A stretch of 52,209 nt of DNA, taken from positions 1 to 52,209 of IMG/VR virus record IMGVR_UViG_3300025674_000062; one strand, 5' to 3'. Made by a program: the position numbers and the translations under genes. Of the stretch, positions 6,431 to 23,335 are shown one piece after another (positions within the stretch are counted from its first letter, which is position 1; every line of letters starts with the position of its first letter). The notes beneath the pieces were generated by a model. It saw only the letters and a list, made by a program, of their open reading frames with translations. It was not told where the DNA came from and did no database searches. This DNA is from a virus. Lineage: Duplodnaviria > Caudoviricetes.

Positions 6431-6607
6431 ATGGAAGAAAAAAGAAAGATGTTGACCGACATCCTCGGTTCGTATTATCAAAAAGGTAATGAGCACTTGT
6501 ATCATTGTCCTTATTGTAAGCACCACAAGAAGAAAATGTCTGTAAACTTTGTAAAAAGGCTACTATTTACTTTTAGACATTTCATTTATCAGGAGACACA
6601 AAAATGA
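6431..6607 (+). pseudogene. truncated primase N-terminal remnant (58 aa)
   Basis: MEEKRKMLTDILGSYYQKGNEHLYHCPYCKHHKKKMSVNF aligns with the first ~42 aa of the primase at 7705, then diverges; not in the ORF track (under 60 aa). Confidence 0.8.
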
Positions 6608-6879
6608 AAATTACAAACCAACAATTAAGAAGAATTATCAAAGAAGAACTTCAAGCAACTCTACGAGAGAGCAAGGATGAAGCACTTAAAATGATTATGG
6701 ATTTAGAAAAAGGCGACGACTTGGGTATGATCCTCGATTTCAGCGATCTCAAAGAGTTGGTTTCAAATGGAGATAAAGAAGGGGCTCTTAAAGAAATCGG
6801 CTATATGTATGAAGGCACAGAAACAGCAGGCCACGATAAACTCTTGAGACGATTAGAAAGATTAATTAAAAAAATGTAA
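6604..6879 (+). CDS. leader-family protein 1 (small helical cargo)
   Basis: N-terminus MKITNQQLRRIIKEELQATLRE; ACTATTTA at 6562-6569 and AGGAG RBS. Confidence 0.75.
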   Translation: MKITNQQLRRIIKEELQATLRESKDEALKMIMDLEKGDDLGMILDFSDLKELVSNGDKEGALKEIGYMYEGTETAGHDKLLRRLERLIKKM

Positions 6880-6890
6880 TATAAAAAACT

Positions 6891-6920
6891 TATCTTTTTT
6901 TATCCTTTTTTATCTTTTAG
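6891..6920 (+). repeat. three phased 10-bp direct repeats TATC(T/C)TTT..
   Basis: TATCTTTTTT / TATCCTTTTT / TATCTTTTAG in tandem, just before ACTATTTA at 6923. Confidence 0.55.
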
Positions 6921-6947
6921 AGACTATTTAAAGTAAAAGGAGTTATC

Positions 6948-7121
6948 ATGTCTAATTTAAAAAATCTCAAAATCAACGAAGAGACCCACGAGAAGTTAAA
7001 GAACTATTGTAAAGAAAAGGGTTTGAAAGTTGGAAAGTTTGTTGAGAACTTGATTAACTCCAAGTTAGCGGAGGATAGTCAAAATGAACTCGGGAATTTA
7101 CAAAATAACAAACAAGATTAA
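6948..7121 (+). CDS. small ribbon-helix-helix-like DNA-binding protein (57 aa)
   Basis: Hand translation MSNLKNLKINEETHEKLKNYCKEKGLKVGKFVENLINSKL...; AGGAG RBS; strand-helix-G-helix pattern; overlaps the GIY-YIG start. Confidence 0.65.
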   Translation: MSNLKNLKINEETHEKLKNYCKEKGLKVGKFVENLINSKLAEDSQNELGNLQNNKQD

Positions 7122-7647
7122 TGGAAAGTTTTATATTGGATCTTCAAATAATATTGAGAGAAGGTGGCGACACCACAAGTCAAACTTGAGAAGCGGAACT
7201 CATACCAATGTTCATCTTCAAAATTCTTACGACAAGCACGGCGAAGATCAATTTGAGTTTGTATTGATTGAGGAAGTAAGAAGAGCTAACTTACTTGTGA
7301 AAGAGCAAGAGTATCTTGACGAAGCCTTTGGTGGAGATCAAGAAATCTACAACATCAGTAGAGTAGCCGGCTCTCCTATGGCTGGATTAAATCATACAGA
7401 GGAAGTCAAGCAACTTCTATCTGAAAAACTGTCTGGTGAAAACCACCCACATTACGGAAAGCCCGTGAGTGAAGAGTGGCGAAGAAAGATAAGCAAATCA
7501 AATAAAAGATTTACGGACGAAGAAGAAGCGACATTTAGAAAAAGATGGTTAGCTGGAGAAACCAAAGGATCAATTGCAAAAGAAATTGGAGTCCATACAA
7601 CAACGATAACAAGGGCAATTGAAAGGGCGGAAAGATTTAATTACTAA
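7084..7647 (+). CDS. free-standing GIY-YIG homing endonuclease with NUMOD3-like repeats and C-terminal HTH
   Basis: SGIYKITN...FYIGSS...RRW, EQEYLD, YNI; HTEEVKQLLS / VSEEWRRKIS repeats; IAKEIGVHTTTITR HTH. Confidence 0.9.
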   Translation: MNSGIYKITNKINGKFYIGSSNNIERRWRHHKSNLRSGTHTNVHLQNSYDKHGEDQFEFVLIEEVRRANLLVKEQEYLDEAFGGDQEIYNISRVAGSPMAGLNHTEEVKQLLSEKLSGENHPHYGKPVSEEWRRKISKSNKRFTDEEEATFRKRWLAGETKGSIAKEIGVHTTTITRAIERAERFNY

Positions 7648-7654
7648 TTTTTCA

Positions 7655-7683
7655 TTGACAAGTCTTTCTTTTCGTGTTATAAA
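7655..7683 (+). promoter_or_regulatory. sigma70-type promoter TTGACA-N17-TATAAA
   Basis: TTGACA 7655-7660, TGT then TATAAA 7678-7683, AGGAGG RBS. Confidence 0.75.
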
Positions 7684-7704
7684 ACAATTTAAAGGAGGAT
7701 AGAA

Positions 7705-8643
7705 ATGAAGACAGAAAAATTAAAAATCCTAAACGATGTTTTAGGAAGCCCAAAAAGACAGGGACAAGATGAGTATTATTATCATTGCCCTTTCTGCAAT
7801 CATCACAAGAAAAAGCTCGCAATAAACTTCAACAATGGGTTCCACTGCTGGGTTTGTGATATTCGTGGAAAGAACATTTACAGAATTGTAAGAAAGTTCG
7901 GTAACTATCAACAACGACAACGATGGTTGGAGCTTGATGGTAGACTTGATCTCGCAGACTTTGATAAGATATATAAAGAAGTAAATGAGATTGAAGAAGA
8001 ACCAACGTGCGATCTACCACCAGAGATGATTTCGCTTTGCAACAAACACCTTCCACGTTCTTCTGAAAGAGCTCTCGACTATCTTCATAGCAGAGGTATT
8101 GACGATTATCAAATAAAATTATGGAAGATTGGTTATTGCACCGAAGGAAGATATTCAGGCAGAATTATTATTCCATCTTTCAACCAAAATGGAGATCCAA
8201 ACTTCTTTATTGCTCGTTCTTATGTTGGACACAGAATGAAATACCTCAATCCAAGAACCACAAAGGACATAATTTTCAACGAACTAATGATTGATTGGGA
8301 TGAGCCTGTTGTGATTGTTGAAGGAGCCTTTGATGCTATTGTTGCAGGAACACAAGGCATTCCTATTCTTGGCTCAACCCTTAGACCAGAGTCTCGCTTA
8401 TTTCAAGCTCTTGCGATAAACGACACACCAGTCTACATAGGACTTGACCAAGATGCGGAGAAGAAAGCATCGTGGATGATTAAGAAAATGATTGAATACG
8501 ACATGGAAGTCTATAAGATAGATACCACAGCCGTTGAAGACATCGGTTCTATGACTCCTCGACAATTCGAGAACGCAAAAGATAGGGCTCAACCAATTGA
8601 TCCTGACTATTTCTTTTTTGACAAGCTTTTAAACGCTATCTAA
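7705..8643 (+). CDS. DNA primase (DnaG/T4 gp61-like)
   Basis: Zn finger CPFC...HCWVC, YLHSRGI, RIIIP, KYLNP, Toprim IVEGAFDA and GLDQDA. Confidence 0.9.
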   Translation: MKTEKLKILNDVLGSPKRQGQDEYYYHCPFCNHHKKKLAINFNNGFHCWVCDIRGKNIYRIVRKFGNYQQRQRWLELDGRLDLADFDKIYKEVNEIEEEPTCDLPPEMISLCNKHLPRSSERALDYLHSRGIDDYQIKLWKIGYCTEGRYSGRIIIPSFNQNGDPNFFIARSYVGHRMKYLNPRTTKDIIFNELMIDWDEPVVIVEGAFDAIVAGTQGIPILGSTLRPESRLFQALAINDTPVYIGLDQDAEKKASWMIKKMIEYDMEVYKIDTTAVEDIGSMTPRQFENAKDRAQPIDPDYFFFDKLLNAI

Positions 8644-8677
8644 CTATTTATTGTAAAGTGTTTTAAGGAGATCTAAA

Positions 8678-8971
8678 ATGAAATTAACAAACGCACAACT
8701 AAAACAAATCATCAAAGAAGAACTAAGCAAAGTTCTTAATGAACAAGATGGTGATTTGGAACAACTAGAAACAAGTCTTAAAGGCATGGGCTTTAATGTT
8801 GTAAATAACAGAACATCTCTAATGACTGATAATATTGAGATTGAATCAACTCCAGAGGGATTCAATATAATAGACCTTGATTATCCTGATCAGTCTAGAG
8901 AAATCAGCAAGTCTGTCGAAAAAGCTATAGAAGACATAAAAGACATAGTTAGACACAGAGGTGCTAACTAA
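8678..8971 (+). CDS. leader-family protein 2
   Basis: MKLTNAQLKQIIKEELSKVLNE; ACTATTTA 8643-8650 and AAGGAG RBS. Confidence 0.75.
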   Translation: MKLTNAQLKQIIKEELSKVLNEQDGDLEQLETSLKGMGFNVVNNRTSLMTDNIEIESTPEGFNIIDLDYPDQSREISKSVEKAIEDIKDIVRHRGAN

Positions 8972-8985
8972 ATTAAACTTTTTTC

Positions 8986-9014
8986 TTGACAAATCTTTTG
9001 TAATGTGTTATAAT
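8986..9014 (+). promoter_or_regulatory. sigma70-type promoter TTGACA-N17-TATAAT
   Basis: TTGACA 8986-8991, TGT then TATAAT 9009-9014, GGAGG RBS. Confidence 0.85.
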
Positions 9015-9043
9015 AAAAACACTTAATTAATTACGGAGGATTT

Positions 9044-12000: not shown

Positions 12001-12196
12001 TACGCTGTTTATCATGGATGAACCGGCAACGGCATTAGACCAAGAGCATATGGAGGGCTTTGTAAGACTAATTGATATGATAAAAGACAAGTTCAAAACA
12101 GTGCTATTGATCTCTCACCTTGATGTTCTAAAAGACTGTGTTGATAAAACGATAGACATACAGAAAGTTGGCGGTTATGCAAAAGTAAACTGCTAA
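9044..12196 (+). CDS. fused Mre11/SbcD nuclease - Rad50/SbcC ATPase (T4 gp47-gp46-like)
   Basis: Phosphoesterase motifs DTH, GDL, GNHD, HG, GDIH; Walker A GKNYSGKS; coiled coil with CEYC zinc hook; signature SGAEK; Walker B FIMDEP; ISH. Confidence 0.9.
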   Translation: MIKKPLRICHFADTHIRNLKFHDEYRFVFNQIYKKLLSQKPDYIIHCGDLAHTKTQLSPEYFALASEFLKNLADIAPTYIILGNHDGNLKNSDREDAVSPIVNALNHPQLHLLKNSGRVSPQPGLSLNVLSIFDRDGWMRPKTGDINIALYHGAVMGSRTGSGWAMEHGDDDISIFKDHDFVMLGDIHKPQILDTEGRVQYAGSTIQQNFSEDGRKGYKLWNIRSKDDFDCQHVIFTNPRPFVTVDLDQKGGIPQHIHVPHGCRLRLISTTNLDSATIRKVTDLARSKYNPVSLTFLNKGTSQFTTSGGEEHKMENMRDASIQEQYIRDYLKDYDLEEDLMCQVLDLNTKYNIEVEKSEEVRRNVKWNIKEMEFSNLFNYGQDNRLDFDSLSGTVGIFGKNYSGKSSVIDSALYGIFGRTSKAEKKNVHLVNQNKDKASIRMVVEADGQEYQITRNLNKSSKTVKGKSVATASGDLDFHNLTTNSSCNGDSVKDTEANIRKIFGDIEDFMITSMASQMDSLSFINEGSTKRKNTLAKFLDLDIFEQKLNFAKKDSSEISALIKRLKNKKLGELLVAKQEEVEEINDDIDQQTDLCKKHTNRYEELLKELADIEQEINSIPQQIIDIDELEDEIDRLDVEIHKAGVKVSGNKTTIKENILAIEQAEAIVSSINEHRLAQIIEQCNDFEKSLKASEKELQALKTKEKQSIKKINMLHDHEYDPNCEYCSNNKFVKDATKAKDYLPTLEEEIEEVEKIIDGWKLKIFGLDKESAEKDLRILDENISKRDKFVQINKNLEITNESIVSKISLMGNQKASLEQQRDEYNANRQAIENLSSLVKTKNAVKTKMNEAKGRKERCDKKIQDLLVELGAVKSTIKRLNVEKREQDELEESFIAYELFMRCMHPNGIAYEIIKQKLSLINEEIQKCLANIVDFQVMFEEDGRNLDINIKHPKYDSRPISMGSGAEKTIAAMAIRLALIEITNLPKSTLFIMDEPATALDQEHMEGFVRLIDMIKDKFKTVLLISHLDVLKDCVDKTIDIQKVGGYAKVNC

Positions 12197-12205
12197 ATCT
12201 CTTTC

Positions 12206-12248
12206 AAAAGCCTATTTAGTGTAAAAGCTATTTAGGCTTTTTTCTTTT
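12206..12248 (+). terminator. hairpin/intrinsic terminator overlapping two CTATTTA motifs
   Basis: AAAAGCCTA...TAGGCTTTT inverted repeat followed by a T-rich run. Confidence 0.55.
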
Positions 12249-12258
12249 GGAGATAACA

Positions 12259-12537
12259 ATGACAAGAGAAGAATTTTTAAAACTTGGAGAACAAATGGAA
12301 GCCAAAGCAAAAGAAATGGATTTAAAAGATAAACTTTATCTTGATAATAAGAACAAAGGTATTCTTGATGCAATTCAAGAGAAAGCAGTTTCTCGTAAGC
12401 TGCTCGTATTTATAGTAGCCACAGCTTTATTGTGGAACGCGCAATTAGACCCTGAAACTTGGGGAATGATTGCTATGATTTACATCGGCGGACAAACCGC
12501 TGTTGACTTTGCCAAGATGTGGAGACATGGAGCGTAG
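12259..12537 (+). CDS. putative holin (2 TM)
   Basis: SRKLLVFIVATALLW and WGMIAMIYIGGQTAVD hydrophobic segments; basic C-terminus; GGAG before ATG 12259. Confidence 0.55.
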   Translation: MTREEFLKLGEQMEAKAKEMDLKDKLYLDNKNKGILDAIQEKAVSRKLLVFIVATALLWNAQLDPETWGMIAMIYIGGQTAVDFAKMWRHGA

Positions 12538-12539
12538 TT

Positions 12540-12875
12540 ATGTTCTGGGTGAATAAAGCAAGAAGATGGATAATAGCTCATAAGAACTGGTTGGTTCTTA
12601 TGGGTCTGTTTGTTTTATCTTATGTTCTCGGAAAGAAAGCTAATAAGAACTATCTTGAAATGGCCAAGCTTGCCAAAGATCAATACAAAAAAGAAAACGA
12701 AGAAATTCAACGCCTACAAAAAGAAAAGCAAGTCAGAGATAAAAAAGCAGATGAAAAATCCAAAGCAGTTAAAGCTGCCCTTGAAGCTGAAAAACAAAGA
12801 AAGTTAGATGAATTACAAAATAAAAACGCTAATATCGACGATGTTTTTCAAGACATTGGAATAAAGAAAAAATGA
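12540..12875 (+). CDS. putative inner-membrane spanin-like protein
   Basis: Single N-terminal TM (WLVLMGLFVLSYVLG) followed by a charged coiled coil; follows the holin-like gene. Confidence 0.45.
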   Translation: MFWVNKARRWIIAHKNWLVLMGLFVLSYVLGKKANKNYLEMAKLAKDQYKKENEEIQRLQKEKQVRDKKADEKSKAVKAALEAEKQRKLDELQNKNANIDDVFQDIGIKKK

Positions 12876-13312
12876 AAATAACCAACAAACAATTGAAACA
12901 AATTATTAAAGAAGAATTATCTTACATTCTTAATGAACAAGAAGATAGAATTCAAAAACTTGCTCGTTATATACGAAATGGAGATACAGAAGATTTAATT
13001 CACGGTTTGGAATTAATTGAGGCTGCTGGGTTGGAACCATGGCACAGAGCTGATCTTTATCAGGCAATAAAGCAACATGTAGACCCGATAAAAGAAGAGA
13101 TGAAATCACTAAGTATGAAAATTTATGAGTTACGAGAACAGCTTTGGGGCCGGATACAGACACAACGACCACCTAATCATCTTGAACAGAAATTAAATGA
13201 AGCAGAACAAAAATATGAAGAATTAAAATTTGAACTGAGACAAATTGAACCAGTTCTTTCTAAATTTAAAACTAATTCTATGGTTTATGTTGATGATCCT
13301 ACAATGGAGTAA
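12872..13312 (+). CDS. leader-family protein 3 (coiled-coil cargo)
   Basis: MKITNKQLKQIIKEELSYILNE; ATGA overlap with the upstream stop. Confidence 0.75.
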   Translation: MKITNKQLKQIIKEELSYILNEQEDRIQKLARYIRNGDTEDLIHGLELIEAAGLEPWHRADLYQAIKQHVDPIKEEMKSLSMKIYELREQLWGRIQTQRPPNHLEQKLNEAEQKYEELKFELRQIEPVLSKFKTNSMVYVDDPTME

Positions 13313-13315
13313 CAA

Positions 13316-13711
13316 ATGATTTTACTATTACTTTCAACACTTGCTTGGGGACAAGTTCCCGAGTACACACAAATAGAGCAAGGTGAGCCTGCTCCATTCT
13401 CCGGTCGCCTCTTCAATGAGGAGGCATCGCAACTTATTGCTGATCAATTAGCAAATTGTGTTGAGAAGTGTCAAATTGAAATGGACTATCAGCTTGGCTT
13501 AGCTCTCGCAAGGAAAGAAGAAGAATTAACACAAATAAAATCTCAACACAAGTATGATAAAGAAATTCTTCAACTTAAAGTAGAAGCACAGCAAGAAAGA
13601 ATTCAAGAACTTGAAAAGCTAAAAACACCACCAAAAAGACAACTTTGGTTCACGTTAGGACTAATTAGTGGAGTAGGAATTACAATTTCAATAGCAAAGG
13701 CGGTAAAATAA
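13316..13711 (+). CDS. exported coiled-coil membrane protein (possible spanin partner)
   Basis: Signal-peptide-like MILLLLSTLAWG, GEPAPFSG, coiled coil, C-terminal TM; no lipobox. Confidence 0.45.
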   Translation: MILLLLSTLAWGQVPEYTQIEQGEPAPFSGRLFNEEASQLIADQLANCVEKCQIEMDYQLGLALARKEEELTQIKSQHKYDKEILQLKVEAQQERIQELEKLKTPPKRQLWFTLGLISGVGITISIAKAVK

Positions 13712-14847
13712 TGAAAATAACAAAACAAGATATCAAAAGAATGATCAAGGAAGAACTAAAAAAAGTTCTCTTAGAAGATATAAGTCCAGTACCAAATATG
13801 AATCCAAGAGACGCTCTTCAGTTTATGAGAGAAGAACTAGAAGGCAAAACGCTTATCTTTTGGGATTTAGAAACAATCTCGGGAATGACAAAAGAAAAGT
13901 ACTTACCACCAGAGTTACAAGAAAGAACTTACTCTGGACAAATAACACAAATTGGTGCGACAGCATATGAAATCGAATCTTTAGATGATGACCCAGCACA
14001 AGCTTTAGTTGGAGAACCATTTGAAAGAAAAGTGATCCTCACCCCTGATACTTTAATGCAACAAGCTTTTGAGAGAGAGCAATTGAAAGACCCTGAATCT
14101 TCTTTTAGCAGATTAGCAGCCCGTCAGCCAGATGCTCCAATAACAGTTGATAAAACACTTCAATTTACACACCATAGTGATCTAGATCTTGAAGACGTTG
14201 ATGAAGCAGATGCTTTGATTGAATATTTTAATTGGCTTGATTCTTTTGATAATAAGGTTTTGTTAGGTCACAACATAATCACATTTGATAATCAATTTCT
14301 TAAGAAAAGAGTTGAGTACTTAGCTGAGACTTTAGAAGACAAACAAAAAGTTGCTCAATTAGTCTCTGGTTACGATTCGTTTTATGATAATGACTTTTTC
14401 GACACTTTAAAGTTTACACGTTATTTGTTTAAGCAAGTTATCACTATGCTTAACTCATATGAAGACCCAATAGCAGCTCAATTCTTTGATCCTGAAACAA
14501 ATCAGAAAAAAATTCAACAAGGAATTACACAAAAATTTACAAGTAAATTATCAAGACTTATGCAAGTTTATGCAAAAGACGCAATTCAATTACATACTGC
14601 TGCTGATGATACGAGACAGTTGGTTAATGTTTTCTTTAAAATGTATCAAACAATAAAAACAGCACAACAAAATCCAGATTATGCTCGTCAGATGGCTTCA
14701 CCGCATCACACTAATCCTATTAAAGCTGCTAAGCAATTGTTCCCAGACGATTTAGAAAAACAAAAATCTGTAAGGGATTTGGCACCAGATGAGATTAGCA
14801 GAATGTTAAAAAGAAAAATTAAATTTCCAGAAGACTGGGAGGTTTAA
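13711..14847 (+). CDS. leader-family protein 4: DEDDh 3'-5' exonuclease (DnaQ-like)
   Basis: Leader MKITKQDIKRMIKEELKKVLLE; ExoI FWDLET, ExoII GHNIITFD, DTL, ExoIII HTAADD. Confidence 0.8.
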   Translation: MKITKQDIKRMIKEELKKVLLEDISPVPNMNPRDALQFMREELEGKTLIFWDLETISGMTKEKYLPPELQERTYSGQITQIGATAYEIESLDDDPAQALVGEPFERKVILTPDTLMQQAFEREQLKDPESSFSRLAARQPDAPITVDKTLQFTHHSDLDLEDVDEADALIEYFNWLDSFDNKVLLGHNIITFDNQFLKKRVEYLAETLEDKQKVAQLVSGYDSFYDNDFFDTLKFTRYLFKQVITMLNSYEDPIAAQFFDPETNQKKIQQGITQKFTSKLSRLMQVYAKDAIQLHTAADDTRQLVNVFFKMYQTIKTAQQNPDYARQMASPHHTNPIKAAKQLFPDDLEKQKSVRDLAPDEISRMLKRKIKFPEDWEV

Positions 14848-15233
14848 TGAAAAATAAAGATCCAAATTATATTGTAAAAGTAGAAAAAGCTATTGCAGAA
14901 AAATACGGCCAAGAAGCCATCGACAATCCAAAGAGGCACTGGACCGACGAAAAAGAGAAGGAATATGTAAAACAACTAAAAGATCTTTACAAAGATTCAA
15001 AACAAAAAGATGACTTCCAAGTTGAAGTTGGTGGCGTTTTTATTGCAGAGAAACTAATTACCAAAGAATCTAAACGCTCTTGCCCTACTTGTAATACTTA
15101 TTCATTCAAATCAAACGATGACGTTTATATGGCAAAATTTGATTGTTGTGAAAAATGTTATATCCAATGGGTTGAGGGACGAGAAGAACGATGGCTAAAA
15201 GGATGGAGACCCCAAAATGAAAATAACAAATGA
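14847..15233 (+). CDS. hypothetical Zn-finger protein
   Basis: CPTC...CCEKC; C-terminal WVEGREERWLKGWRP. Confidence 0.55.
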   Translation: MKNKDPNYIVKVEKAIAEKYGQEAIDNPKRHWTDEKEKEYVKQLKDLYKDSKQKDDFQVEVGGVFIAEKLITKESKRSCPTCNTYSFKSNDDVYMAKFDCCEKCYIQWVEGREERWLKGWRPQNENNK

Positions 15234-15846
15234 ACAATTAAGACAAATTATCAAAGAAGAGCTTGAAGCTGTATTAAATGAAGCTTATGCAGGACAGGGA
15301 GAAACCACAGGTTTATCTGGTCGAACAGGTTATGCAAAAAGCAAACAGCAAAAAGATCTAGAACGAGATGCTAAAGCTAGACAATCTCAACATTATGATA
15401 ACCAAGAAGCTGGTGAGAGAGCTTATAGACAACAACAAGCAGACAAAAAACAAGCAGCAAAAGACAGAGCTGCCCCTGGGAAAAGAAGTGCTAACATACG
15501 CGAAATGTCAAAGTTTGTTGTTAAAGATACCATAAGTGACTTGATAGGATTGATGGATAGTGATTTTGGACAACATAGAGGCGATAGAACCGGTTTTTTT
15601 AAAGCTTTAAAAAAGATTAGCGGAATGACAGAAAAAGATTTTATAAATAAAGTAGAAGAAACAACCGAGGCTTATATGACAAAAAAGAATATTACACAAT
15701 TACAAGACAGAGATATGAAAAAAATTGCAAACGATTCGGCATTTGAAATTAAACAATTAATTAAAGATGCTAAAAAGAAAGCAAGGAATAGAACATTTAT
15801 GCAAAAAGCTGGTAGTTTTTTAACAGGTAAAGGCTTCAAACAATAA
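15217..15846 (+). CDS. leader-family protein 5 (basic, helical cargo)
   Basis: MKITNEQLRQIIKEELEAVLNE; GGAG RBS inside the upstream gene. Confidence 0.75.
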   Translation: MKITNEQLRQIIKEELEAVLNEAYAGQGETTGLSGRTGYAKSKQQKDLERDAKARQSQHYDNQEAGERAYRQQQADKKQAAKDRAAPGKRSANIREMSKFVVKDTISDLIGLMDSDFGQHRGDRTGFFKALKKISGMTEKDFINKVEETTEAYMTKKNITQLQDRDMKKIANDSAFEIKQLIKDAKKKARNRTFMQKAGSFLTGKGFKQ

Positions 15847-15858: not shown

Positions 15859-16413
15859 ATGAGCAACACAACATTAGAAATTATACAAGGACTTTCACAA
15901 GCAGCAGCTAATGCTTACGATGGCGCACATGATGAAAAATATTCTTACGACGGTCAAGCTCGCACAATGGGTTTGAAAAGAGAAGAAGGTTGTCCAATTA
16001 TGGACAAAAGAGTTATGGACGGCTTCAAAGTTCGCTTCTATGGTGACTCAATGATTCTTTCTTACCAAGCCGAGGTTATGCTTAAAGAAGTTTATGGTGG
16101 GAGATTTGAACAAGATATTGAATCAATGATGAATGATATCAAGAAATTCTTGCAAAAAGAATACAGAGCAGTTACAGGAAAGTCAGTGACCCTTACAGCT
16201 AAAGGTGAGCCTAATATCCTTGTTCAATCAACATCAAGAATTCGTAATTGGGTTGAGGCACAACAACACTTCAAGATTGGCGGAATTGAATCCTTGCCTA
16301 TTCTTGAGCCTTCAATAGACCAAACAAGAGACGTAACAAGAAAGTTCTTAGAACAATTTTCGGACAAACGCCCACAAAACGATACACGCAAAAAAGGAGC
16401 AAATCAAAAATGA
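15859..16413 (+). CDS. hypothetical protein
   Basis: AAGGAG RBS, 184-aa ORF upstream of the terminase. Confidence 0.6.
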   Translation: MSNTTLEIIQGLSQAAANAYDGAHDEKYSYDGQARTMGLKREEGCPIMDKRVMDGFKVRFYGDSMILSYQAEVMLKEVYGGRFEQDIESMMNDIKKFLQKEYRAVTGKSVTLTAKGEPNILVQSTSRIRNWVEAQQHFKIGGIESLPILEPSIDQTRDVTRKFLEQFSDKRPQNDTRKKGANQK

Positions 16414-16730
16414 AAATCACAAATGAACAATTAAAGCAAATTATTAAAGAAGAATTAGAAACAGTCCTCAATGAAGAAAGACAAGCTTTTGTTTTTTTTG
16501 ATCCATCTGGAAACATAGAACTTCAAAATGTTAGCATTGACGATAGTCAAAATTGGAATATTCCTGTTCATTATTTTGATCAACAAAGCTACAGGACTCT
16601 ATTGTCATTGAAAGGGAAACCATTAGGCCAAGAAGGTGCTCAATATTTCTTCAACATGATAAAAAGACTTAATGCTAAACCTGATAAATTGAACGTTGAA
16701 AAATTAGCAAGAGCAAAGGTCACCAGCTAG
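16410..16730 (+). CDS. leader-family protein 6
   Basis: MKITNEQLKQIIKEELETVLNE; ATGA overlap, AAGGAG RBS. Confidence 0.75.
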   Translation: MKITNEQLKQIIKEELETVLNEERQAFVFFDPSGNIELQNVSIDDSQNWNIPVHYFDQQSYRTLLSLKGKPLGQEGAQYFFNMIKRLNAKPDKLNVEKLARAKVTS

Positions 16731-16742
16731 TAAGAAGGGATA

Positions 16743-18329: not shown

Positions 18330-18330
18330 C

Positions 18331-18370
18331 TTGACATTCGATTTACTTTATGTTATAATAGAACTATTTA
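18331..18370 (+). promoter_or_regulatory. tandem sigma70 promoter plus ACTATTTA motif upstream of portal
   Basis: TTGACA 18331-18336, N17, TATAAT 18354-18359; ACTATTTA 18363-18370. Confidence 0.75.
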
Positions 18371-18388
18371 CTACGAAAAGGAATAGCT

Positions 18389-20356
18389 ATGCCCAAATAT
18401 AAAAAGTCGCCTTATAATCCTCAGTCGGATCTATTTAAGGCTCTTACAAAATTGTTTTCTGGTCCGATTACCCAGAGAAGAACACAAACAGGTCGTCAAC
18501 TAAGAAGACGACAATTAGATAATTATGCAACAAAGTTTCAATCAGCTACTGGTGCTCAATTTAAGAAGTGGGAATACAATCCCATAAACTCTGTTACTCT
18601 TAACATGATCTCAAACAGAAACAGAGCAGAGCGCTATGTTGATTTTGATGAAATGGAATATATGCCAGAGATCGCATCTTCATTAGATATTTATGCAGAT
18701 GAGATGACAACTCACACAGCACTTCGTCCGATGCTTAACATTAAATGTGCGAACGAAGAAATAAAACACATCCTCCATAATTTATATCACAATGTTCTTA
18801 ACATTGAACACAACCTATTTGGATGGGCAAGAACAATGTGCAAGTACGGTGATTTCTTTCTTTATCTTGATATTGATGAAGATATGGGAATTCGATCTGC
18901 TATTGGTCTTCCAACCAGAGAGATCGAGCGTCTTGAGGGCGAGGACCAAAGTAATCCTAATTACGTTCAATACCAGTGGAACACAGCTGGACTAACTCTG
19001 GAGAATTGGCAAGTTGCTCACTTCAGAATCCTTGGTAATGATAAGCATGCTCCTTATGGAACGTCGGTCCTCGAACCTTGTAGACGCATTCACCGTCAAC
19101 TTATTCTTTTAGAAGATGCTATGATGGCTTATAGAATTGTACGTGCTCCTGAACGTCGGTTGTTCAAAATTGACGTTGGTGGTATTCCACCGCAAGAAGT
19201 TGAACAGTACATGCAAAAAGTTATGTCACAATTAAAAAGACACTCAGTTGTAGATCCAAATACAGGTCGTGTCGATCTACGTTATAACCCTTTATCAATT
19301 GAAGAAGATTATTATATTCCAATACGTGGAGGACAATCTTCAACAGATATCACAAGTCTTCCCGGTGCAGCTTATAATGGCGGTATTGATGATGTTAAGT
19401 ATCTCAGAGATAAATTGTTTGCTGCTTTGAAGATACCTCAGTCTTATTTGACCATGGGCGAAGGTGCTTCTGAAGACAAAACCACATTAGCTCAAAAAGA
19501 TATTAGATTTGCAAGAACAATACAAAGATTACAAAGAGTTGCAATTGCTGAATTAGAAAAGATTGGAATAATACATCTCTACACGATGGGATACAGAAAT
19601 GATGATCTATTAGCTTTCACACTTCAACTAAACAATCCGTCTAAGATTGCTGAGTTGCAAGAACTTGAACATTGGGACAAAAAGTTTTCTGTTGCTGGAA
19701 ATGCAACAGAAGGATACTTCTCAAAACGCTGGATTGCGGAACACCTTTTCGGAATGTCTGAGGATGAGTTTCTTCGTAACCAAAGAGAAATGTTCTTTGA
19801 TAAAAAATTCGCAGCAAAACTTGAAGCTGCTACTGCTGGTGGAGAAGCTAGTGAAGACGCCGGTGGTGGTGGCGGACTTTCTGGTGGACTTGGCGACCTC
19901 GGTGGTGGAGGTGACCTTGGTGGAGGTGAAGATTTAGGAGGTGACCTTGGCGGTGACCTTGGCGGTGGAGACACCGGTGGAGGAGATGTCGGCGGCGACG
20001 AAGGGGGTGATACCGATCTGCTCGCCGAACCCTCTGCGAAACGTGATGATTCACCTTCATATGTTGATATTCCAAGAAAGGTTGGATTTAACAATCCCGA
20101 CACAAGACGAGGTCCATACAAAAGGCACCAATCTTCTTATGATAAAGGCGGTATGAAAAAGTCTATGCTCGGCTCCACAGGAATTGAGGCAGCAAGATCT
20201 ACAGGTCGTAACATTTATAAAGGCTATGTTGGAAATGAATTTTCTGTTTCCCAAGCAGCTGGTGGCTATTTAGAAGAAGAACAAAAACTAGAAACAGTAT
20301 CTCGCGAAGTCGAGATGCTTATTGAATCATTAAACAAAAAGGAATCAATAGAATGA
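18389..20356 (+). CDS. portal protein (T4 gp20-like) with Gly-rich C-terminal extension
   Basis: QLILLEDAMMAYRIVRAPERRLFKIDVG, EEDYYIP, DDVKYLRDKLFAALKIP, DIRFARTIQRLQ; follows the terminase. Confidence 0.93.
   Translation: MPKYKKSPYNPQSDLFKALTKLFSGPITQRRTQTGRQLRRRQLDNYATKFQSATGAQFKKWEYNPINSVTLNMISNRNRAERYVDFDEMEYMPEIASSLDIYADEMTTHTALRPMLNIKCANEEIKHILHNLYHNVLNIEHNLFGWARTMCKYGDFFLYLDIDEDMGIRSAIGLPTREIERLEGEDQSNPNYVQYQWNTAGLTLENWQVAHFRILGNDKHAPYGTSVLEPCRRIHRQLILLEDAMMAYRIVRAPERRLFKIDVGGIPPQEVEQYMQKVMSQLKRHSVVDPNTGRVDLRYNPLSIEEDYYIPIRGGQSSTDITSLPGAAYNGGIDDVKYLRDKLFAALKIPQSYLTMGEGASEDKTTLAQKDIRFARTIQRLQRVAIAELEKIGIIHLYTMGYRNDDLLAFTLQLNNPSKIAELQELEHWDKKFSVAGNATEGYFSKRWIAEHLFGMSEDEFLRNQREMFFDKKFAAKLEAATAGGEASEDAGGGGGLSGGLGDLGGGGDLGGGEDLGGDLGGDLGGGDTGGGDVGGDEGGDTDLLAEPSAKRDDSPSYVDIPRKVGFNNPDTRRGPYKRHQSSYDKGGMKKSMLGSTGIEAARSTGRNIYKGYVGNEFSVSQAAGGYLEEEQKLETVSREVEMLIESLNKKESIE
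19838..20010 (+). repeat. Gly/Asp low-complexity repeat (GGDL)n within portal
   Basis: GGGGGLSGGLGDLGGGGDLGGGEDLGGDLGGDLGGGDTGGGDVGGDEGGD; repeated GGTGACCTTGG at the DNA level. Confidence 0.85.
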
Positions 20357-20718
20357 AAATAACAAACAAACAACTAAAACAAATAATAAAAGAAGAACTT
20401 GATAATACACTTCAAGAAATGCAAGTGGGCTTAGGGCTTCCTCATGAATTTACAGATGAGGAATTAATCCAACACGCATCTGAATTTCTGAATACAGTTT
20501 ATGTTCCAGAAAGAACCGGAAGGATTTGGAGCAACGAGGATAATATAAAAGCTTTAGGATTATATAAGATTTTAGGAAACAGGGTGAGAGAAGCAGGTGT
20601 TTTCAATAATGATCCGACTGATGCAGATAAAGATGCGGCAAAAAGAAAACAGTGGGAACTTAGACGGTTACGTAGCGAACTACAGAATATTATATCCCGA
20701 GAGTTTTTAGATATTTAA
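20353..20718 (+). CDS. leader-family protein 7
   Basis: MKITNKQLKQIIKEELDNTLQE; ATGA overlap with the portal stop. Confidence 0.75.
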   Translation: MKITNKQLKQIIKEELDNTLQEMQVGLGLPHEFTDEELIQHASEFLNTVYVPERTGRIWSNEDNIKALGLYKILGNRVREAGVFNNDPTDADKDAAKRKQWELRRLRSELQNIISREFLDI

Positions 20719-20731
20719 CAAGGAGAAGCAA

Positions 20732-21526
20732 ATGAAACATAATAAGAAAAGAAATACCGCTTTTCTTTACGAATGCCTAATCAAAGAAATGACCAAGGCC
20801 GTTGTAAGAGGAGAGCTCAAAAAGAAACAACAAATTGTTGAGACGCTTAAAAGATTTTTCTCAAAAGGAAAACCTCTTTACAACGATCTCCAATTGTACA
20901 AACAACTAATGGAACCTCAAAAGCTTGAGGAATCTCTTGGACTTCGTTATATGAAAGAAGTAAAAGAAGACTGGGAAGCTTTAGATAGAAAAGAAATCTT
21001 TAACGAGCAAACCAATCTAATCAAAGAATTCAATCAAAATCTTCCAGAGGCATTTGGAAACTTTATTCCTAACTATAAATCAATTGCAACCGTGGGCCAA
21101 TATTTCCATTCTAGTGGCCTTAAAGCAAAGACTCGCCTATTGATAGAGGAAAAGGTAAAAGGACTTGTTATTTCGCATCCTCAAGCGATTAAAGAGGATA
21201 AAATGAAGCCTCTTGACAACCTTACATACAATACATTCGTTTCTAAATTTAATGACACATATAAAGAAACTTTGCTAAAAGAACAAAGAGAATTGTTGAC
21301 CAATTTCATTACGTCATTCTCCGACAATGGTTTAGGGCTCAAGATGTTCATGAACGAAGAGCTTGGAAGATTGAAAGAAGAATGCGATCAACTTAGTGAA
21401 GGCAAGTGGGCCGATAAGATAAAACTAATTAAAGAAAAGATTGAAGGGTTTAAAACAAAACCTTTAACCGAGGAAGTTGTGAAAGATGTGTTTCATATTC
21501 AACAATTATTAGCGGAGATCAAATAA
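20732..21526 (+). CDS. hypothetical helical protein, possible prohead core component
   Basis: Lies between portal and protease (position of T4 core genes); AAGGAG RBS. Confidence 0.5.
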   Translation: MKHNKKRNTAFLYECLIKEMTKAVVRGELKKKQQIVETLKRFFSKGKPLYNDLQLYKQLMEPQKLEESLGLRYMKEVKEDWEALDRKEIFNEQTNLIKEFNQNLPEAFGNFIPNYKSIATVGQYFHSSGLKAKTRLLIEEKVKGLVISHPQAIKEDKMKPLDNLTYNTFVSKFNDTYKETLLKEQRELLTNFITSFSDNGLGLKMFMNEELGRLKEECDQLSEGKWADKIKLIKEKIEGFKTKPLTEEVVKDVFHIQQLLAEIK

Positions 21527-22210
21527 ATGTATAGACCACCACAAGATATTATCACAGACATATTAAAAGAAGATATTGGTATCGATATACAAACCCCAAC
21601 AGGTATCAACATCCAAACTGAACCAGAAGAACGAGACTTGGATATTAAAATTCAAGGAGATAGAGATATCCATTTCACTGATCCTGGGATTGGAATAAAA
21701 ATTGTAAACCCAAACGAAAGAACAACAAAATTTGAAATGAACATTCGCAAAGCTCTTAATGGAGATCTTCTTGTGTTTGATCATGCTGACATTGACATTG
21801 TTCTCATGGTTGAGAAAAAGAAGTTGGTTGCATTTCCAAAAGACCTAATGTCAGAAGTCGTTTATGGTGCAGAAGCACGTTTGATGGAATGGATGAGAAA
21901 GAACGGTATTATTGAGTACGATTCAATCCAAGGTGGTAACGTTTATGGTTCTCTCGAAGGAAAGATTCACGAATCAAAAGAAAGAGATTCAATCAAGTCA
22001 ACCATCTATCAATTGTCCGAGTGGATAAAGTCCGAAGCTCCATCATCAAAAATGAAGAAAGGTCACGATGATATGATGCAAGATGCTCAATTGAAACCTG
22101 ACGAAGAAAACCATACAGAGCTAGGCGAAGTGCCTCATGCAGAAGAGAAGGGTTCTATTTTACAACATAATCTATTTGCGCCTTATCTGTATGGACGTTA
22201 CACTTACTAG
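21527..22210 (+). CDS. hypothetical protein (head module)
   Basis: Abuts the upstream stop, GGAG RBS, 227 aa. Confidence 0.55.
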   Translation: MYRPPQDIITDILKEDIGIDIQTPTGINIQTEPEERDLDIKIQGDRDIHFTDPGIGIKIVNPNERTTKFEMNIRKALNGDLLVFDHADIDIVLMVEKKKLVAFPKDLMSEVVYGAEARLMEWMRKNGIIEYDSIQGGNVYGSLEGKIHESKERDSIKSTIYQLSEWIKSEAPSSKMKKGHDDMMQDAQLKPDEENHTELGEVPHAEEKGSILQHNLFAPYLYGRYTY

Positions 22211-22217
22211 GAGTCTA

Positions 22218-22532
22218 ATGCTTAACTTTATACTCGCCGCTTATGGCTTGACTTTCATTCTTATTCACGGCAAGATCTTTGAAGACATCCGACCACCAAA
22301 AGATTACACAAAGAAATGGAACACACTTTTCCACTGCCCTTTGTGTATGGGCTTCTGGGTTGGTTGTTTTTTATTTTGCATTAACCGTTGGACAGAACTA
22401 TTTACATTTGATTACACAACCGCCAATTTCTTTATTTGCGGTTGGATTTCTGCTGGAACATCATATCTGATTTCTATGTTGGTTGATGACTTCGGCTTTC
22501 GCATTTCAAAAATTGGAGATAAAGATGAATAA
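22218..22532 (+). CDS. small membrane protein with CxxC (DUF1360-like)
   Basis: AGGAG before ATG 22218; hydrophobic helices; LFHCPLCMGFWVG. Confidence 0.55.
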   Translation: MLNFILAAYGLTFILIHGKIFEDIRPPKDYTKKWNTLFHCPLCMGFWVGCFLFCINRWTELFTFDYTTANFFICGWISAGTSYLISMLVDDFGFRISKIGDKDE

Positions 22533-22578
22533 AAAATGGATGCTACAACCAGTTCGTCGTTGCTGTTCAGGCAGCTGA
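22525..22578 (+). CDS. 17-aa Cys-containing peptide MNKKWMLQPVRRCCSGS
   Basis: GGAG RBS at about 22515; overlaps the upstream stop; ends in TGA followed by a GC hairpin. Confidence 0.4.
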   Translation: MNKKWMLQPVRRCCSGS

Positions 22579-22615
22579 CTCAAGCGGGTTGCGCCCGCAT
22601 TTTATGGAGAAAGAA

Positions 22616-23335
22616 ATGAAAATAACAAATAAACAATTAAGACAAATCATAAAGGAAGAGCTCAATCGTGTTTTAAGAGAAAACATGGGTTTAAAAATGT
22701 TTGTCCTCGTTGGTCCACCATCTGTTGGTAAATCAACTTGGATTAATAAAACTTTTGGACAAAATAGACCTTACGTCATCAATAGAGATGATATAGTTGA
22801 AGATGTTGCCTCAGAATATGGTTGGACATATGACGACATGTTTGCAACACCACCACAGGACGCAGAAATTGGCAGTGTTGACCAAAAATACGGTGAAGTA
22901 CAGAAACCACCAAGTTGGATGACTTGGGCAAAATCAGTGTTTTCAACTGTTATGGAAGCAAATGGGAAAGTTCATAACTTGTTTACACAGAGAGTAGCAG
23001 GTGCCGTAGATAGTGGTCAAGACATTGTAGTTGATATGACTAATATGAACAAGAGAGCCAGATCTGGTGCTTTAAAAGCAATTGAAGGTTCAGAAGATCA
23101 ATATGAAAAAATTGCTGTTGTTTTTGAATCTAAAGGAGCTGAAGAATTTATTAAAGCCGTTGCTCAAAAAAGAGCTGAGGCTGCTGCAAGAATGGGTAAA
23201 TCTAAAACAATCCCTCCTGCTGTTTTTGATAGAATGTTTGCATCATTTGAAGATGTAAGTATGGATGAAGGGTTTGATGAAATAGTGAGTGTGGATAATA
23301 GACAATTACTACAACAACTAGCTAGTGAGATGTAA
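22616..23335 (+). CDS. leader-family protein 8: P-loop kinase (AAA_33 / polynucleotide-kinase-like)
   Basis: Leader MKITNKQLRQIIKEELNRVLRE; VLVGPPSVGKST, INRDDI, IVVDMTN, R...R lid, IPPAVFDRM; GGAG before ATG 22616. Confidence 0.8.
   Translation: MKITNKQLRQIIKEELNRVLRENMGLKMFVLVGPPSVGKSTWINKTFGQNRPYVINRDDIVEDVASEYGWTYDDMFATPPQDAEIGSVDQKYGEVQKPPSWMTWAKSVFSTVMEANGKVHNLFTQRVAGAVDSGQDIVVDMTNMNKRARSGALKAIEGSEDQYEKIAVVFESKGAEEFIKAVAQKRAEAAARMGKSKTIPPAVFDRMFASFEDVSMDEGFDEIVSVDNRQLLQQLASEM

What the first reader, a model, noticed from the sequence alone, without database searches (positions are those of the whole stretch)
6604..23335. Modular capsid-targeting leader system: one 22-aa leader fused to at least 8 unrelated cargos
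Seen: genes at 6604, 8678, 12872, 13711, 15217, 16410, 20353 and 22616 all begin with a leader of consensus MK(I/L)TNxQL(K/R)QIIKEELxxxLxE (13711 is the most divergent). IKEEL is at residues 12-16 and L-x-E at residues 20-22 in all eight (LRE, LNE, LNE, LLE, LNE, LNE, LQE, LRE). Similarity stops right after E22. Codons vary synonymously between copies, so selection is on the peptide and this is not a DNA repeat. Known: the T4 prohead protease gp21 cuts after Glu in (I/L)-x-E, and T4 internal proteins carry a short N-terminal capsid targeting sequence that is removed this way before they are injected with the DNA (IPI* blocks GmrSD restriction). A gp21-like protease is encoded here at 23337. 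Inference: this is a distinct, longer helical packaging tag that loads diverse proteins into the prohead, is cleaved, and delivers them at infection. It would form an exchangeable set of early effectors and a possible protein-delivery tool.
Basis: partly seen in the sequence, partly recalled or inferred. Interest (0 to 1): 0.92.

Follow-up and report, generated by a model that had tools for sequence, protein, structure and literature searches.

The report
Shared leader peptide on phage cargo
Eight unrelated genes of an uncultured T4-like phage begin with the same 22-residue helix, which ends in the cutting motif of the phage's head protease, so they are probably loaded into the capsid and delivered with the DNA, though nobody has shown this.

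Summary
Exactly eight + strand ORFs start with MK(I/L)T(N/K)xQ(L/I)(K/R)(Q/R)(I/M)IKEEL..L.E. Identical residues often use different codons, and similarity ends at E22.

The window is a whole IMG/VR record, about 29% of a roughly 180-kb T4-like phage. It encodes a Peptidase_S77 (gp21-type) protease at 23337.

- 7,660 protein clusters match its profile.
- It sits almost always at the N-terminus, with 5-25 matches in each of five larger related genomes.
- It is nearly absent from cellular genomes.
- 197 tagged proteins fall into 167 cargo clusters.

A second leader, MKxLFENWxKFLxE, heads other unrelated proteins. Orthologues of the 22616 polynucleotide-kinase-like cargo carry different leaders in different phages.

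Both leader classes, and T4's own MKTYQEFIAE tag, share hydrophobic-x-x-hydrophobic-(L/I)-x-E just before the cargo.

A T4-style capsid-targeting propeptide is the best reading (about 0.55). Packaging, cleavage and injection are not shown. Neither leader was found in five cultured T4-type phages, three of them named by earlier notes for virion mass spectrometry.

This scan noted T4-style leaders before on other DNA. I found no paper on this leader.

The parts
6604..6879 (+). Leader gene 1, 91 aa. Leader 6604-6669 (MKITNQQLRRIIKEELQATLRE); orphan acidic body.
   Evidence: No Pfam or PHROG hit. Lies in an insertion next to a GIY-YIG endonuclease gene.
8678..8971 (+). Leader gene 2, 97 aa. Leader 8678-8743; orphan body.
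   Evidence: No family hit.
12872..13312 (+). Leader gene 3, 146 aa. Leader 12872-12937; orphan helical body.
   Evidence: Only sub-threshold family hits.
13711..14847 (+). Leader gene 4, 378 aa. Divergent leader 13711-13776 (MKITKQDIKRMIKEELKKVLLE) on a DEDD-type exonuclease-like body.
   Evidence: RNase_T 4.7e-6. Of 55 homologues, 53 hold the leader region, and all 53 keep this leader subtype with L-x-E-D at 20-23, although the bodies are only 33-38% identical.
15217..15846 (+). Leader gene 5, 209 aa. Leader 15217-15282; basic body (pI 9.9).
   Evidence: No family hit; the ESM Atlas gave nothing usable.
16410..16730 (+). Leader gene 6, 106 aa. Leader 16410-16475; lies directly upstream of the large terminase gene.
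20353..20718 (+). Leader gene 7, 121 aa. Leader 20353-20418; lies directly downstream of the portal gene, the slot where T4 has prohead-core gene 67.
   Evidence: one orthologue in a related contig; T4 gene order.
22616..23335 (+). Leader gene 8, 239 aa. Leader 22616-22681 on a polynucleotide-kinase-like P-loop kinase; lies directly upstream of the protease gene.
   Evidence: AAA_33 2e-13, with the domain starting at residue 28. In the model the leader is helix 5-23 at lower confidence, then the first strand at 26. The best fold matches are polynucleotide kinases. The search found 725 homologues; I read the best 120, which carry several leader classes.
5675..6376 (+). Candidate second-class leader protein: MKVIMENWRKNLVLNE..., a variant of MKxLFENWxKFLxE. 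The ORF is called from 5663; the leader starts at Met5.
   Evidence: The class B profile hits only this window ORF, E 6.7e-6. No Pfam family.
23337..23966 (+). Prohead protease, Peptidase_S77 (T4 gp21 type). The ELDHP and SSRGLGS motifs line up by eye with T4 gp21 ELNHP and SSRGLGS. The N-terminus holds LLTE8, as T4 has LIE9.
   Evidence: The T4 LIE-9 remark is from passages of PMC9026906.
23966..24385 (+). Conserved small head-module protein. Its N-terminus, MKKQELKKILKPLIKECIKEVIFE, holds three overlapping I-x-E units. A kinase orthologue elsewhere carries a similar N-terminus.
   Evidence: Not significant against the class A profile (E 24).
36480..37523 (+). Candidate scaffold: an acidic, helical 347-aa protein encoded directly upstream of the capsid gene. 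It holds 13 [LI]xE sites.
   Evidence: By position and composition only. No family hit.
37542..39293 (+). Major capsid protein (gp23 type). Predicted maturation cut after LLRE59, that is after base 37718.
   Evidence: PHROG major head protein 6e-68. E59 aligns with E65 in T4 gp23's FLTE-AEIGG stretch; that gp23 is cut after E65 is my recall. E59 is invariant in the 3-way alignment.
18389..20356 (+). Portal protein (T4 gp20 type).
   Evidence: Portal_T4 1.9e-76.

Best explanation
The 22-residue leader is a capsid-targeting propeptide of the T4 internal-protein kind.

Proposed mechanism:
- The leader forms an amphipathic helix that docks the newly made protein onto the scaffolding core while the prohead assembles.
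- The S77 prohead protease encoded at 23337 then cuts after Glu14 (I-K-E), after Glu22 (L-x-E), or after both.
- The freed body stays in the head and leaves with the DNA at the next infection.

The leader reads as two tandem units of hydrophobic-x-x-hydrophobic-(L/I)-x-Glu: L8..I11 I12 . E14, then L16..V19 L20 . E22. The same unit occurs once in a second leader class in these phages (W8..F11 L12 . E14) and once in T4's tag (Y4..F7 I8 . E10).

Shown: the sequence pattern, its distribution, its co-occurrence with the protease, and leader swapping on one cargo.

Inferred: docking, cutting, packaging, ejection, and any anti-host role of the cargos.
For: 1. The tag is a peptide, not a DNA repeat, and it is N-terminal.
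- 38% of identical residues use different codons.
- In 80 IMG/VR loci, 180 of 196 motif hits have a Met exactly 10 residues upstream.
- With a looser regex, 220 of 235 hits have a start codon there.

2. Conservation stops at a Glu.
- In 214 unique leaders, positions 1-16 carry 3-4.3 bits, apart from variable position 6 (1.4 bits). V19, L20 and E22 carry 1.6-2.1 bits. Positions beyond 22 carry under 0.6 bits.
- Positions 11-16 were fixed by my regex; positions 1-10 and 17 onward were not.

3. The tag is restricted to phages that have the protease.
- 17 of 27 larger leader-bearing records encode Peptidase_S77, including all 4 estimated at 78% complete or more. The 10 without it are 20-62% complete.
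- One genome for each of 185,579 prokaryote species gave only 5 confirmed loci, in 4 metagenome-assembled genomes. Two of those 4 also encode S77, so they are probably binned phage contigs.

4. The bodies are extremely diverse. 197 tagged proteins form 167 BLASTP clusters, 148 of them singletons. Only 9 Pfam families appear among 140 representatives.

5. A second, unrelated leader converges on the same ending.
- MKxLFENWxKFLxE heads 74 unique proteins in the loci I held.
- E14 is present in 65 of 74 and [LIVM]12 in 68 of 74. Conservation drops after residue 14. The bodies form 50 clusters.
- At least 600 pattern matches occur in IMG/VR.

6. Leaders are swapped on one cargo.
- Of the best 120 of 725 homologues of the 22616 kinase, a rough regex split gives about 45 class A-like, about 38 class B, 17 '..IFE' and 9 '..YLFE' leaders.
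- 105 of 120 have [LI]xE within 25 residues before the kinase core.

7. The pattern matches T4.
- T4 ipII and ipIII both begin MKTYQEFIAE.
- Passages of PMC9026906 say residues 4 and 7 serve targeting, residues 8 and 10 serve processing, and gp21 cuts after L/I-X-E.

8. The protease's specificity is probably kept. The glutamate of T4 gp23's FLTE stretch (E65; that gp23 is cut there is my recall) aligns with LLRE59 here. The protease keeps an N-terminal L-x-E, as T4 gp21 does.

9. Leader genes sit in and beside the head module at varying slots. Here they lie after the portal gene and before the protease gene. In a relative one lies between the protease gene and the next conserved gene.

10. Fused proteins hold 2-4 leader copies, some internal and without a Met, as expected for protease-jointed polyproteins.

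11. One tagged body is a YkuD L,D-transpeptidase, a family I recall as acting on cell-wall peptidoglycan. It starts with this leader and I saw no signal peptide by eye. Delivery from the virion would explain how it gets there.
Against: - There is no direct evidence of packaging, cutting or ejection.
- The leader has no sequence similarity to the T4 tag. The class A and class B profiles find nothing in T4, Atu_ph07, HTVC008M, Syn9 or P-SSM2. Published virion proteomes of those phages therefore cannot be transferred to this leader.
- The hydrophobic i, i+3, i+4, i+7 spacing is what any amphipathic helix shows. Only the Glu adds specificity.
- E22 is missing in 75 of 214 leaders.
- The cargos have a median pI of 5.0, the same as other ORFs of the window. 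They are not basic like the T4-type internal proteins described in the T4 review.
- Two window cargos look like ordinary nucleic-acid enzymes (an exonuclease and a polynucleotide kinase). Five of the eight genes lie among replication genes.
- All T4-like phages have an S77 protease, so co-occurrence shows clade restriction rather than a functional link.
- Many counts come from loci that I fetched by similarity to the leader.
Confidence: 0.55

Rival explanations
1. The leader is a docking or oligomerisation helix for a common partner that is not the prohead. Candidates are a phage hub protein, a replication or repair complex, or a condensate. It gathers many accessory proteins in the infected cell and is never cut or packaged.
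For: - It is a predicted amphipathic helix directly abutting the folded domain.
- Two cargos are nucleic-acid enzymes, and five of the eight genes lie among replication genes.
- The cargos are acidic like ordinary cytoplasmic proteins.
- Internal copies in fused proteins show that the motif also works away from an N-terminus.
Against: - It does not explain why conservation ends at a Glu preceded by L/I-x in two unrelated leader classes.
- It does not explain why different leaders replace each other on the same kinase.
- It does not explain why leader genes are inserted inside the portal-to-protease block.
- No candidate partner is known.
Confidence: 0.2
2. The leader is the recognition sequence of a modifying or degrading enzyme, as in RiPP precursors or a timed degron. 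One enzyme would then act on many tagged proteins without any link to the capsid.
For: - One leader with many unrelated bodies is the logic of RiPP leader peptides (recalled).
Against: - No Radical_SAM domain above the Pfam cut-off was found in the window or in 4 related genomes, one of them complete. That is 0 of 5, while the 14 control genomes all matched.
- The bodies are whole proteins of 60-420 residues, including enzymes, not short core peptides.
- I did not test for other classes of modifying enzyme.
Confidence: 0.07
3. The shared start is a nucleic-acid-level feature. It could be a recombination arm that lets cargo cassettes move, or an A-rich start region kept for translation, with the peptide a by-product.
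For: - The leaders are A-rich, and some pairs share up to 21 identical bases.
- Leader genes behave as single-gene inserts at varying slots.
- One lies in a GIY-YIG endonuclease insertion.
Against: - Protein identity (72%) is held with synonymous codon changes at 38% of identical residues. The median shared exact run is 11 nt.
- The peptide is kept at 7,660 clusters and at internal, Met-less positions.
- In the exonuclease family the leader is far better conserved than the body.
- Recombination between leaders may still occur as a side effect.
Confidence: 0.05

Closest known systems
Capsid targeting sequence (CTS) of phage T4 internal proteins IPI, IPII, IPIII and Alt, removed by the gp21 prohead protease
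   Same: - A short N-terminal tag on otherwise unrelated proteins.
- The tag ends in (L/I)-x-Glu.
- The same genome encodes a gp21-type S77 protease.
- Hydrophobic residues sit at P7 and P4, L/I at P3 and Glu at P1.
- Tagged genes vary between related phages.

Sources: passages of PMC9026906 and PMC3012670; T4 ipII and ipIII N-termini.
   Different: - 22 residues instead of 10, readable as two tandem units.
- Aliphatic rather than aromatic residues at P7 and P4.
- No detectable sequence similarity.
- At least two leader classes in one clade.
- Mostly acidic bodies.
- 5-25 profile matches in each of five larger related genomes, 6 clear leaders in the one complete genome, and thousands of cargo clusters.
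- Fused multi-leader proteins.
- Nothing has been tested experimentally.
N-terminal packaging signal of phage P1 DarB
   Same: An N-terminal stretch of 30 residues is sufficient to direct a protein, and a foreign reporter, into the capsid (abstract and passages of PMC9024508).
   Different: P1 uses it for one large antirestriction protein within a stepwise Dar assembly. The passages I read describe neither a family of tagged proteins nor protease removal.
Cleaved propeptides of head and ejection proteins in giant phages (phiKZ, 201phi2-1, SPN3US)
   Same: A diverged gp21-like protease cuts many head proteins after Glu, and propeptides can hold several cut sites (passages of PMC9026906).
   Different: In the passages I read, those propeptides are not one shared leader sequence. 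Here a single conserved leader heads unrelated proteins.
RiPP leader peptides shared by many precursors
   Same: One conserved leader, a hypervariable remainder, and many paralogues per genome.
   Different: The bodies here are whole folded proteins. No maturase of the radical-SAM type was found.

Membership tests
T4-type capsid targeting sequence / internal-protein system | The same short tag at the N-terminus of otherwise unrelated proteins of one phage | tested here: met
   Eight of eight in the window. Their bodies fall in separate BLASTP clusters.
T4-type capsid targeting sequence / internal-protein system | The tag ends in the prohead protease motif (L/I)-x-Glu | tested here: met
   Window: 8 of 8 have L-x-E at 20-22 and I-K-E at 12-14. 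Relatives: [LI]xE at 20-22 in 102 of 213. I-K-E at 12-14 in 209 of 213, but my regex partly fixed those positions.
T4-type capsid targeting sequence / internal-protein system | A gp21-type (Peptidase_S77) prohead protease in the same genome | tested here: met
   PF03420 at 2e-33 at 23337. Found in 17 of 27 larger leader-bearing records, including all 4 that are 78% complete or more.
T4-type capsid targeting sequence / internal-protein system | Sequence similarity to the T4 tag MKTYQEFIAE | tested here: not met
   The leader profiles find nothing in T4 at E up to 1. Only the P7/P4/P3/P1 pattern is shared.
T4-type capsid targeting sequence / internal-protein system | Tagged proteins are present in the virion with the tag removed | not testable with these tools
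   No cultured phage with this leader is known to me to have a virion proteome. The nearest cultured phage, Flavobacterium phage immuto, has only a short look-alike.
T4-type capsid targeting sequence / internal-protein system | The tag alone is sufficient to load a foreign protein | not testable with these tools
   This needs an experiment. The co-fold of leader and scaffold gave no verdict.
T4-type capsid targeting sequence / internal-protein system | Bodies are small basic DNA-associated proteins | tested here: not met
   Median pI is 5.0, and 64% are below pI 6, the same as other window ORFs. Only 15217 and 16410 are basic. T4 Alt shows this is not a strict requirement.
RiPP-like leader served by a radical-SAM maturase | A radical-SAM enzyme encoded with the tagged genes | tested here: not met
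   PF04055 above the cut-off in 0 of 5 records (the window and 4 relatives, one complete). The 14 control genomes all matched.

The most novel reading that the evidence does not exclude
An uncultured clade of T4-like phages, about 180 kb and including jumbo relatives, uses a small 'address code' of interchangeable leaders. There are at least two classes, possibly four or five, all built on hydrophobic-x-x-hydrophobic-(L/I)-x-Glu.

The code would load thousands of unrelated proteins and protease-jointed polyproteins into the capsid. That would make these the largest pool of virion-delivered effectors yet seen, including RNA-repair-type and cell-wall enzymes.

The doubled unit of the 22-residue class would set a different loading rank or copy number from the single-unit class.
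Probability: 0.3. Interest if true: 0.85.

Novelty: new variant of a known kind. Interest (0 to 1): 0.68.

Why it matters
If the reading is right:
- A simple sequence rule would pick out the proteins that a large clade of uncultured T4-like phages injects with its DNA. Such proteins act before any phage gene is expressed, so they are prime candidates for counter-defence and host take-over.
- It would give function-level context to thousands of orphan protein clusters.
- It would show that the T4 capsid-targeting principle is a general, modular code rather than a peculiarity of T-even coliphages.
- It would offer new tags for loading foreign proteins into phage heads.

If the reading is wrong, a 22-residue peptide kept on 7,660 clusters of unrelated proteins still needs an explanation.

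Tried and rejected
Steps that led nowhere:
- Co-fold of the candidate scaffold (16-row alignment) with leader residues 1-40 (130-row alignment). The verdict was 'no answer', score 0.00, and the controls were not run. It counts neither way.
- tblastn of class A and class B leaders against 50,697 phage records. The only matches were two weak ones in one uncultured 484-kb record, and none for class B. The queries are short and the low-complexity filter is on, so sensitivity is poor.
- Profile searches of that 484-kb record found 16 divergent leaders. Flavobacterium phage immuto has one short form, MKKSQLRQIIKEAL; a second look-alike in immuto (gene 198) I saw only by eye. Mel-JY01 has only a C-terminal look-alike, and RM378 has none.
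- The T4 late-promoter motif TATAAATA (recalled) gave 4 matches against 3.5 expected. The sigma-70 scan was at background. Expression timing could not be read.
- The ESM Atlas on 15217 gave nothing above chance.
- Basic-protein test: the cargos are not basic.
- Radical-SAM rival: not supported.
- The idea that the conserved protein at 23966 carries the same leader: not significant against the profile (E 24). It is kept only as a look-alike.

Literature searches for the motif and for CTS-type leaders in marine or uncultured phages returned no paper on this leader.
- I read passages only of PMC9026906, PMC3012670 and PMC9024508.
- All other titles I saw only in listings.
- I did not read the Atu_ph07 paper (PMC6102473).
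Virion proteome tables there could bear on the claim.

Full report
WHAT IS THERE

The window is a complete IMG/VR virus record of 52,209 bases, estimated at 29% of its genome, which implies about 180 kb. It is a T4-like myovirus fragment.
- It holds a T4-type portal (Portal_T4, 1.9e-76) and a gp23-type major capsid protein.
- Its large terminase is closest to Flavobacterium phage immuto (45%), Microcystis phage Mel-JY01 (42%) and an uncultured 484-kb phage (39%).
- It encodes a Peptidase_S77 prohead protease at 23337 (2e-33). The ELDHP and SSRGLGS motifs line up by eye with T4 gp21.

Eight + strand ORFs (6604, 8678, 12872, 13711, 15217, 16410, 20353, 22616) begin with MK(I/L)T(N/K)xQ(L/I)(K/R)(Q/R)(I/M)IKEEL..L.E.
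- A six-frame regex finds exactly these eight.
- A profile separates them (E 2e-9 or better) from everything else in the window (next best E 0.27).
- Protein identity averages 72%, and 38% of identical residues use different codons.
- After E22, identity is 0-6 of 40.
- Seven of the eight have a GGA/GGAG-type ribosome-binding site in the 30 bases upstream.

THE BODIES

- 22616 is a P-loop kinase. AAA_33 starts at residue 28.
  - The AlphaFold model has mean pLDDT 89.9. The leader is helix 5-23 at pLDDT 64-77, running straight into the first strand.
  - Its best structural matches are polynucleotide kinases: mammalian PNKP and Clostridium thermocellum Pnkp, E about 1e-6.
- 13711 is a DEDD exonuclease-like protein (RNase_T 4.7e-6).
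- The other six have no Pfam or PHROG family.

HOW FAR THE LEADER REACHES

A profile of the eight leaders finds 7,660 clusters at E 0.001 or better, among 1.84 billion representatives clustered at 50% identity. That library carries no names, and I saw only the best 150.

In IMG/VR at least 597 stretches match the core pattern, and 144 were confirmed. In the 80 loci kept:
- 180 of 196 motif hits have a Met exactly 10 residues upstream.
- With a looser regex, 220 of 235 have a start codon there.

Five larger related genomes give 5-25 profile matches each at E 0.1 or better. A stricter local search of the one complete 187-kb genome finds six class A leaders (E 0.01 or better), five of them 6-12 kb from its protease gene.

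Cellular genomes are almost free of the leader. One genome for each of 185,579 species gave five confirmed loci in four metagenome-assembled genomes. Two of the four also encode S77, so they are probably binned phage contigs.

Among 27 larger leader-bearing records, 17 encode S77, including all four at 78% completeness or more. The ten without it are 20-62% complete.

Cultured and named phages:
- T4, Atu_ph07, HTVC008M, Syn9 and P-SSM2 lack the leader.
- Phage immuto has only a short form, MKKSQLRQIIKEAL.
- The 484-kb uncultured phage has 16 divergent copies.

ANATOMY OF THE LEADER

In 214 unique leaders:
- Positions 1-16 carry 3-4.3 bits, apart from variable position 6 (1.4 bits).
- V19, L20 and E22 carry 1.6-2.1 bits.
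- Everything after 22 carries under 0.6 bits.
- Positions 11-16 were fixed by my regex; the others were free.

E22 is present in 139 of 214, and [LI]xE at 20-22 in 102 of 213. The near-invariant I12-K13-E14 is also an (L/I)-x-E site.

I read the leader as two tandem units: L8-x-x-I11-I12-x-E14 and L16-x-x-V19-L20-x-E22.

THE CARGO POOL

197 complete tagged proteins from the loci fall into 167 BLASTP clusters, 148 of them singletons. Of 140 representatives, only nine Pfam families appear, one member each: YkuD, DUF6321, AAA_33, tRNA_lig_CPD, RNase_T, TPR_19, a weak Annexin, YkuD_2 and DUF5754.

Median length is 122 residues and median pI 5.0, no different from other window ORFs.

NEW OBSERVATIONS THAT BEAR ON FUNCTION

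1. Leader swapping. The kinase has 725 homologues.
- Among the best 120, the extension before the kinase core is class A-like in about 45.
- About 38 carry a quite different leader, MKxLFENWxKFLxE (class B).
- 17 carry '..SLIRESLNTIFE' and 9 carry 'MKFKSTKQFVNYLFE'.
- [LI]xE lies within 25 residues before the core in 105 of 120.
- These class counts come from rough regular expressions.

2. Class B is itself a shared leader.
- With only M1, positions 4-5, E6 and W8 fixed, 74 unique proteins in the held loci carry it.
- E14 is present in 65 of 74 and [LIVM]12 in 68 of 74. Conservation falls after residue 14. There are 50 cargo clusters.
- IMG/VR holds at least 600 pattern matches, of which 41 were confirmed; the 14-residue query makes confirmation weak.
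- An unsupervised clustering of the first 15 residues of 1,189 ORFs gives class A (227) and class B (62) as the two largest groups. Part of those loci were fetched through one or the other leader.
- In the window, the protein at 5675 is a class B variant (E 6.7e-6).

3. Fused forms. Ten of ten top hits that I fetched hold 2-4 leader copies, some internal and not preceded by Met. One related genome has a 362-residue two-leader protein between its protease gene and the next conserved gene.

4. In the exonuclease family the leader, with L-x-E-D at 20-23, is kept in all 53 homologues that include the region. The bodies are only 33-38% identical.

COMPARISON WITH T4

T4 ipII and ipIII both start MKTYQEFIAE.

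Passages of PMC9026906 state that:
- the first 10 residues suffice for packaging;
- residues 4 and 7 matter for targeting, and residues 8 and 10 for processing;
- gp21 cuts after L/I-X-E;
- related phages have other proteins with CTS-like starts.

PMC3012670 (passages) calls the internal proteins a diverse set of defence proteins with only a conserved CTS.

Counted back from the Glu, all three have a hydrophobic P7, a hydrophobic P4, L/I at P3 and E at P1:
- T4: Y(P7), F(P4), I(P3), E(P1).
- Class B: W8, F/Y11, L12, E14.
- Class A: L8, I11, I12, E14, and again L16, V19, L20, E22.

This is my inference. An amphipathic helix gives such spacing anyway, so only the Glu at the conservation boundary is specific.

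The glutamate of T4 gp23's FLTE stretch (E65; that gp23 is cut there is my recall) aligns with LLRE59 of the window's capsid protein. Both proteases keep an L-x-E near their N-terminus. The cutting rule is therefore probably conserved.

VERDICT ON MECHANISM

The best reading (0.55) is a capsid-targeting propeptide cut by the S77 protease, with the bodies carried in the head.

Rivals:
- A docking helix for another partner (0.2).
- A recognition tag for another enzyme (0.07). No radical-SAM gene was found in 0 of 5 records.
- A DNA-level or translation-level feature (0.05). Synonymous variation and internal copies argue against it.

The remaining probability is for something not thought of.

Against the best reading:
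- There is no direct evidence.
- The cargos are acidic.
- Two cargos are ordinary-looking nucleic-acid enzymes.
- Genes lie among replication genes.
- Co-occurrence with S77 may only reflect the clade.

NOVELTY

The principle of one targeting tag with diverse bodies and gp21 processing is known for T-even phages. New here are:
- a distinct 22-residue, two-unit leader;
- a second leader class in the same phages;
- leader exchange on one cargo;
- fused multi-leader proteins;
- the scale.

Six literature searches returned no paper on this leader. Supplements were closed.

Earlier notes of this scan report T4-style leaders and cargo polyproteins in other uncultured T4-like phages. They are unchecked AI notes and I used them only as leads.
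- I tested the radical-SAM caution.
- I tested the Atu_ph07 lead: the leaders of this window are not in that phage.
- I partly tested the recombination-arm idea.

Noticed in passing
window 6431-8643: A 58-aa ORF (6431-6607) repeats the N-terminal zinc-finger part of the primase at 7705 (22 of 39 identical, E 3e-15). Between the fragment and the full primase gene lie leader gene 6604, a 57-aa ORF (6948) and a GIY-YIG/NUMOD3 homing endonuclease (7084-7647). A leader gene therefore sits inside what looks like an endonuclease-linked insertion that duplicated the 5' end of the primase gene.
   Followed up: partly
window 19900-20100 (portal C-terminal part): The portal protein carries a long Gly/Asp/Leu-rich low-complexity stretch (GGGGGLSGGLGDLGGGGDLGGGEDLGGDLGG...) before its C-terminal tail.
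   Followed up: no
L078:482-1279: A class A leader heads a YkuD L,D-transpeptidase domain (catalytic SGGCIRL). I saw no signal peptide by eye. This looks like a cell-wall enzyme that could reach the wall only from the virion or at lysis.
   Followed up: partly
proteins P0001, P0003, P0006, P0011-P0013, P0018, P0023, P0024; L095:3827-4915 (- strand): Proteins of 300-660 residues hold 2-4 leader copies about 100-200 residues apart. Some copies are internal and lack a Met. They could be fusions of neighbouring leader genes or true polyproteins.
   Followed up: partly
held IMG/VR loci: A third recurrent N-terminus, MAxRKNKKRIDPRYFMDEKT (21 members), passed my 'unlike body' filter. It may be a conserved small protein with indels rather than a leader.
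   Followed up: no
window 24609-25321: Two tandem paralogues of about 118 aa (MSDNIYTAGLGNVGSYQVAGTPYL... and MSNIYSTGLHHVGAYQVAGRPYC...) follow the head module. They match no PHROG family and are conserved in relatives.
   Followed up: no
PP395634.1 (Microcystis phage Mel-JY01) 53614-53688: A leader look-alike (MKITREQLKEKIRIIVKRVLNEAMK) forms the C-terminal end of a 428-aa hypothetical protein, not an N-terminus.
   Followed up: no
window 9044-12196: A single 1050-aa ORF joins an SbcD-type Metallophos nuclease domain (residues 6-190) to an SbcC/SMC-type ATPase (369-1041). T4 has these as two genes, 47 and 46 (recalled).
   Followed up: no
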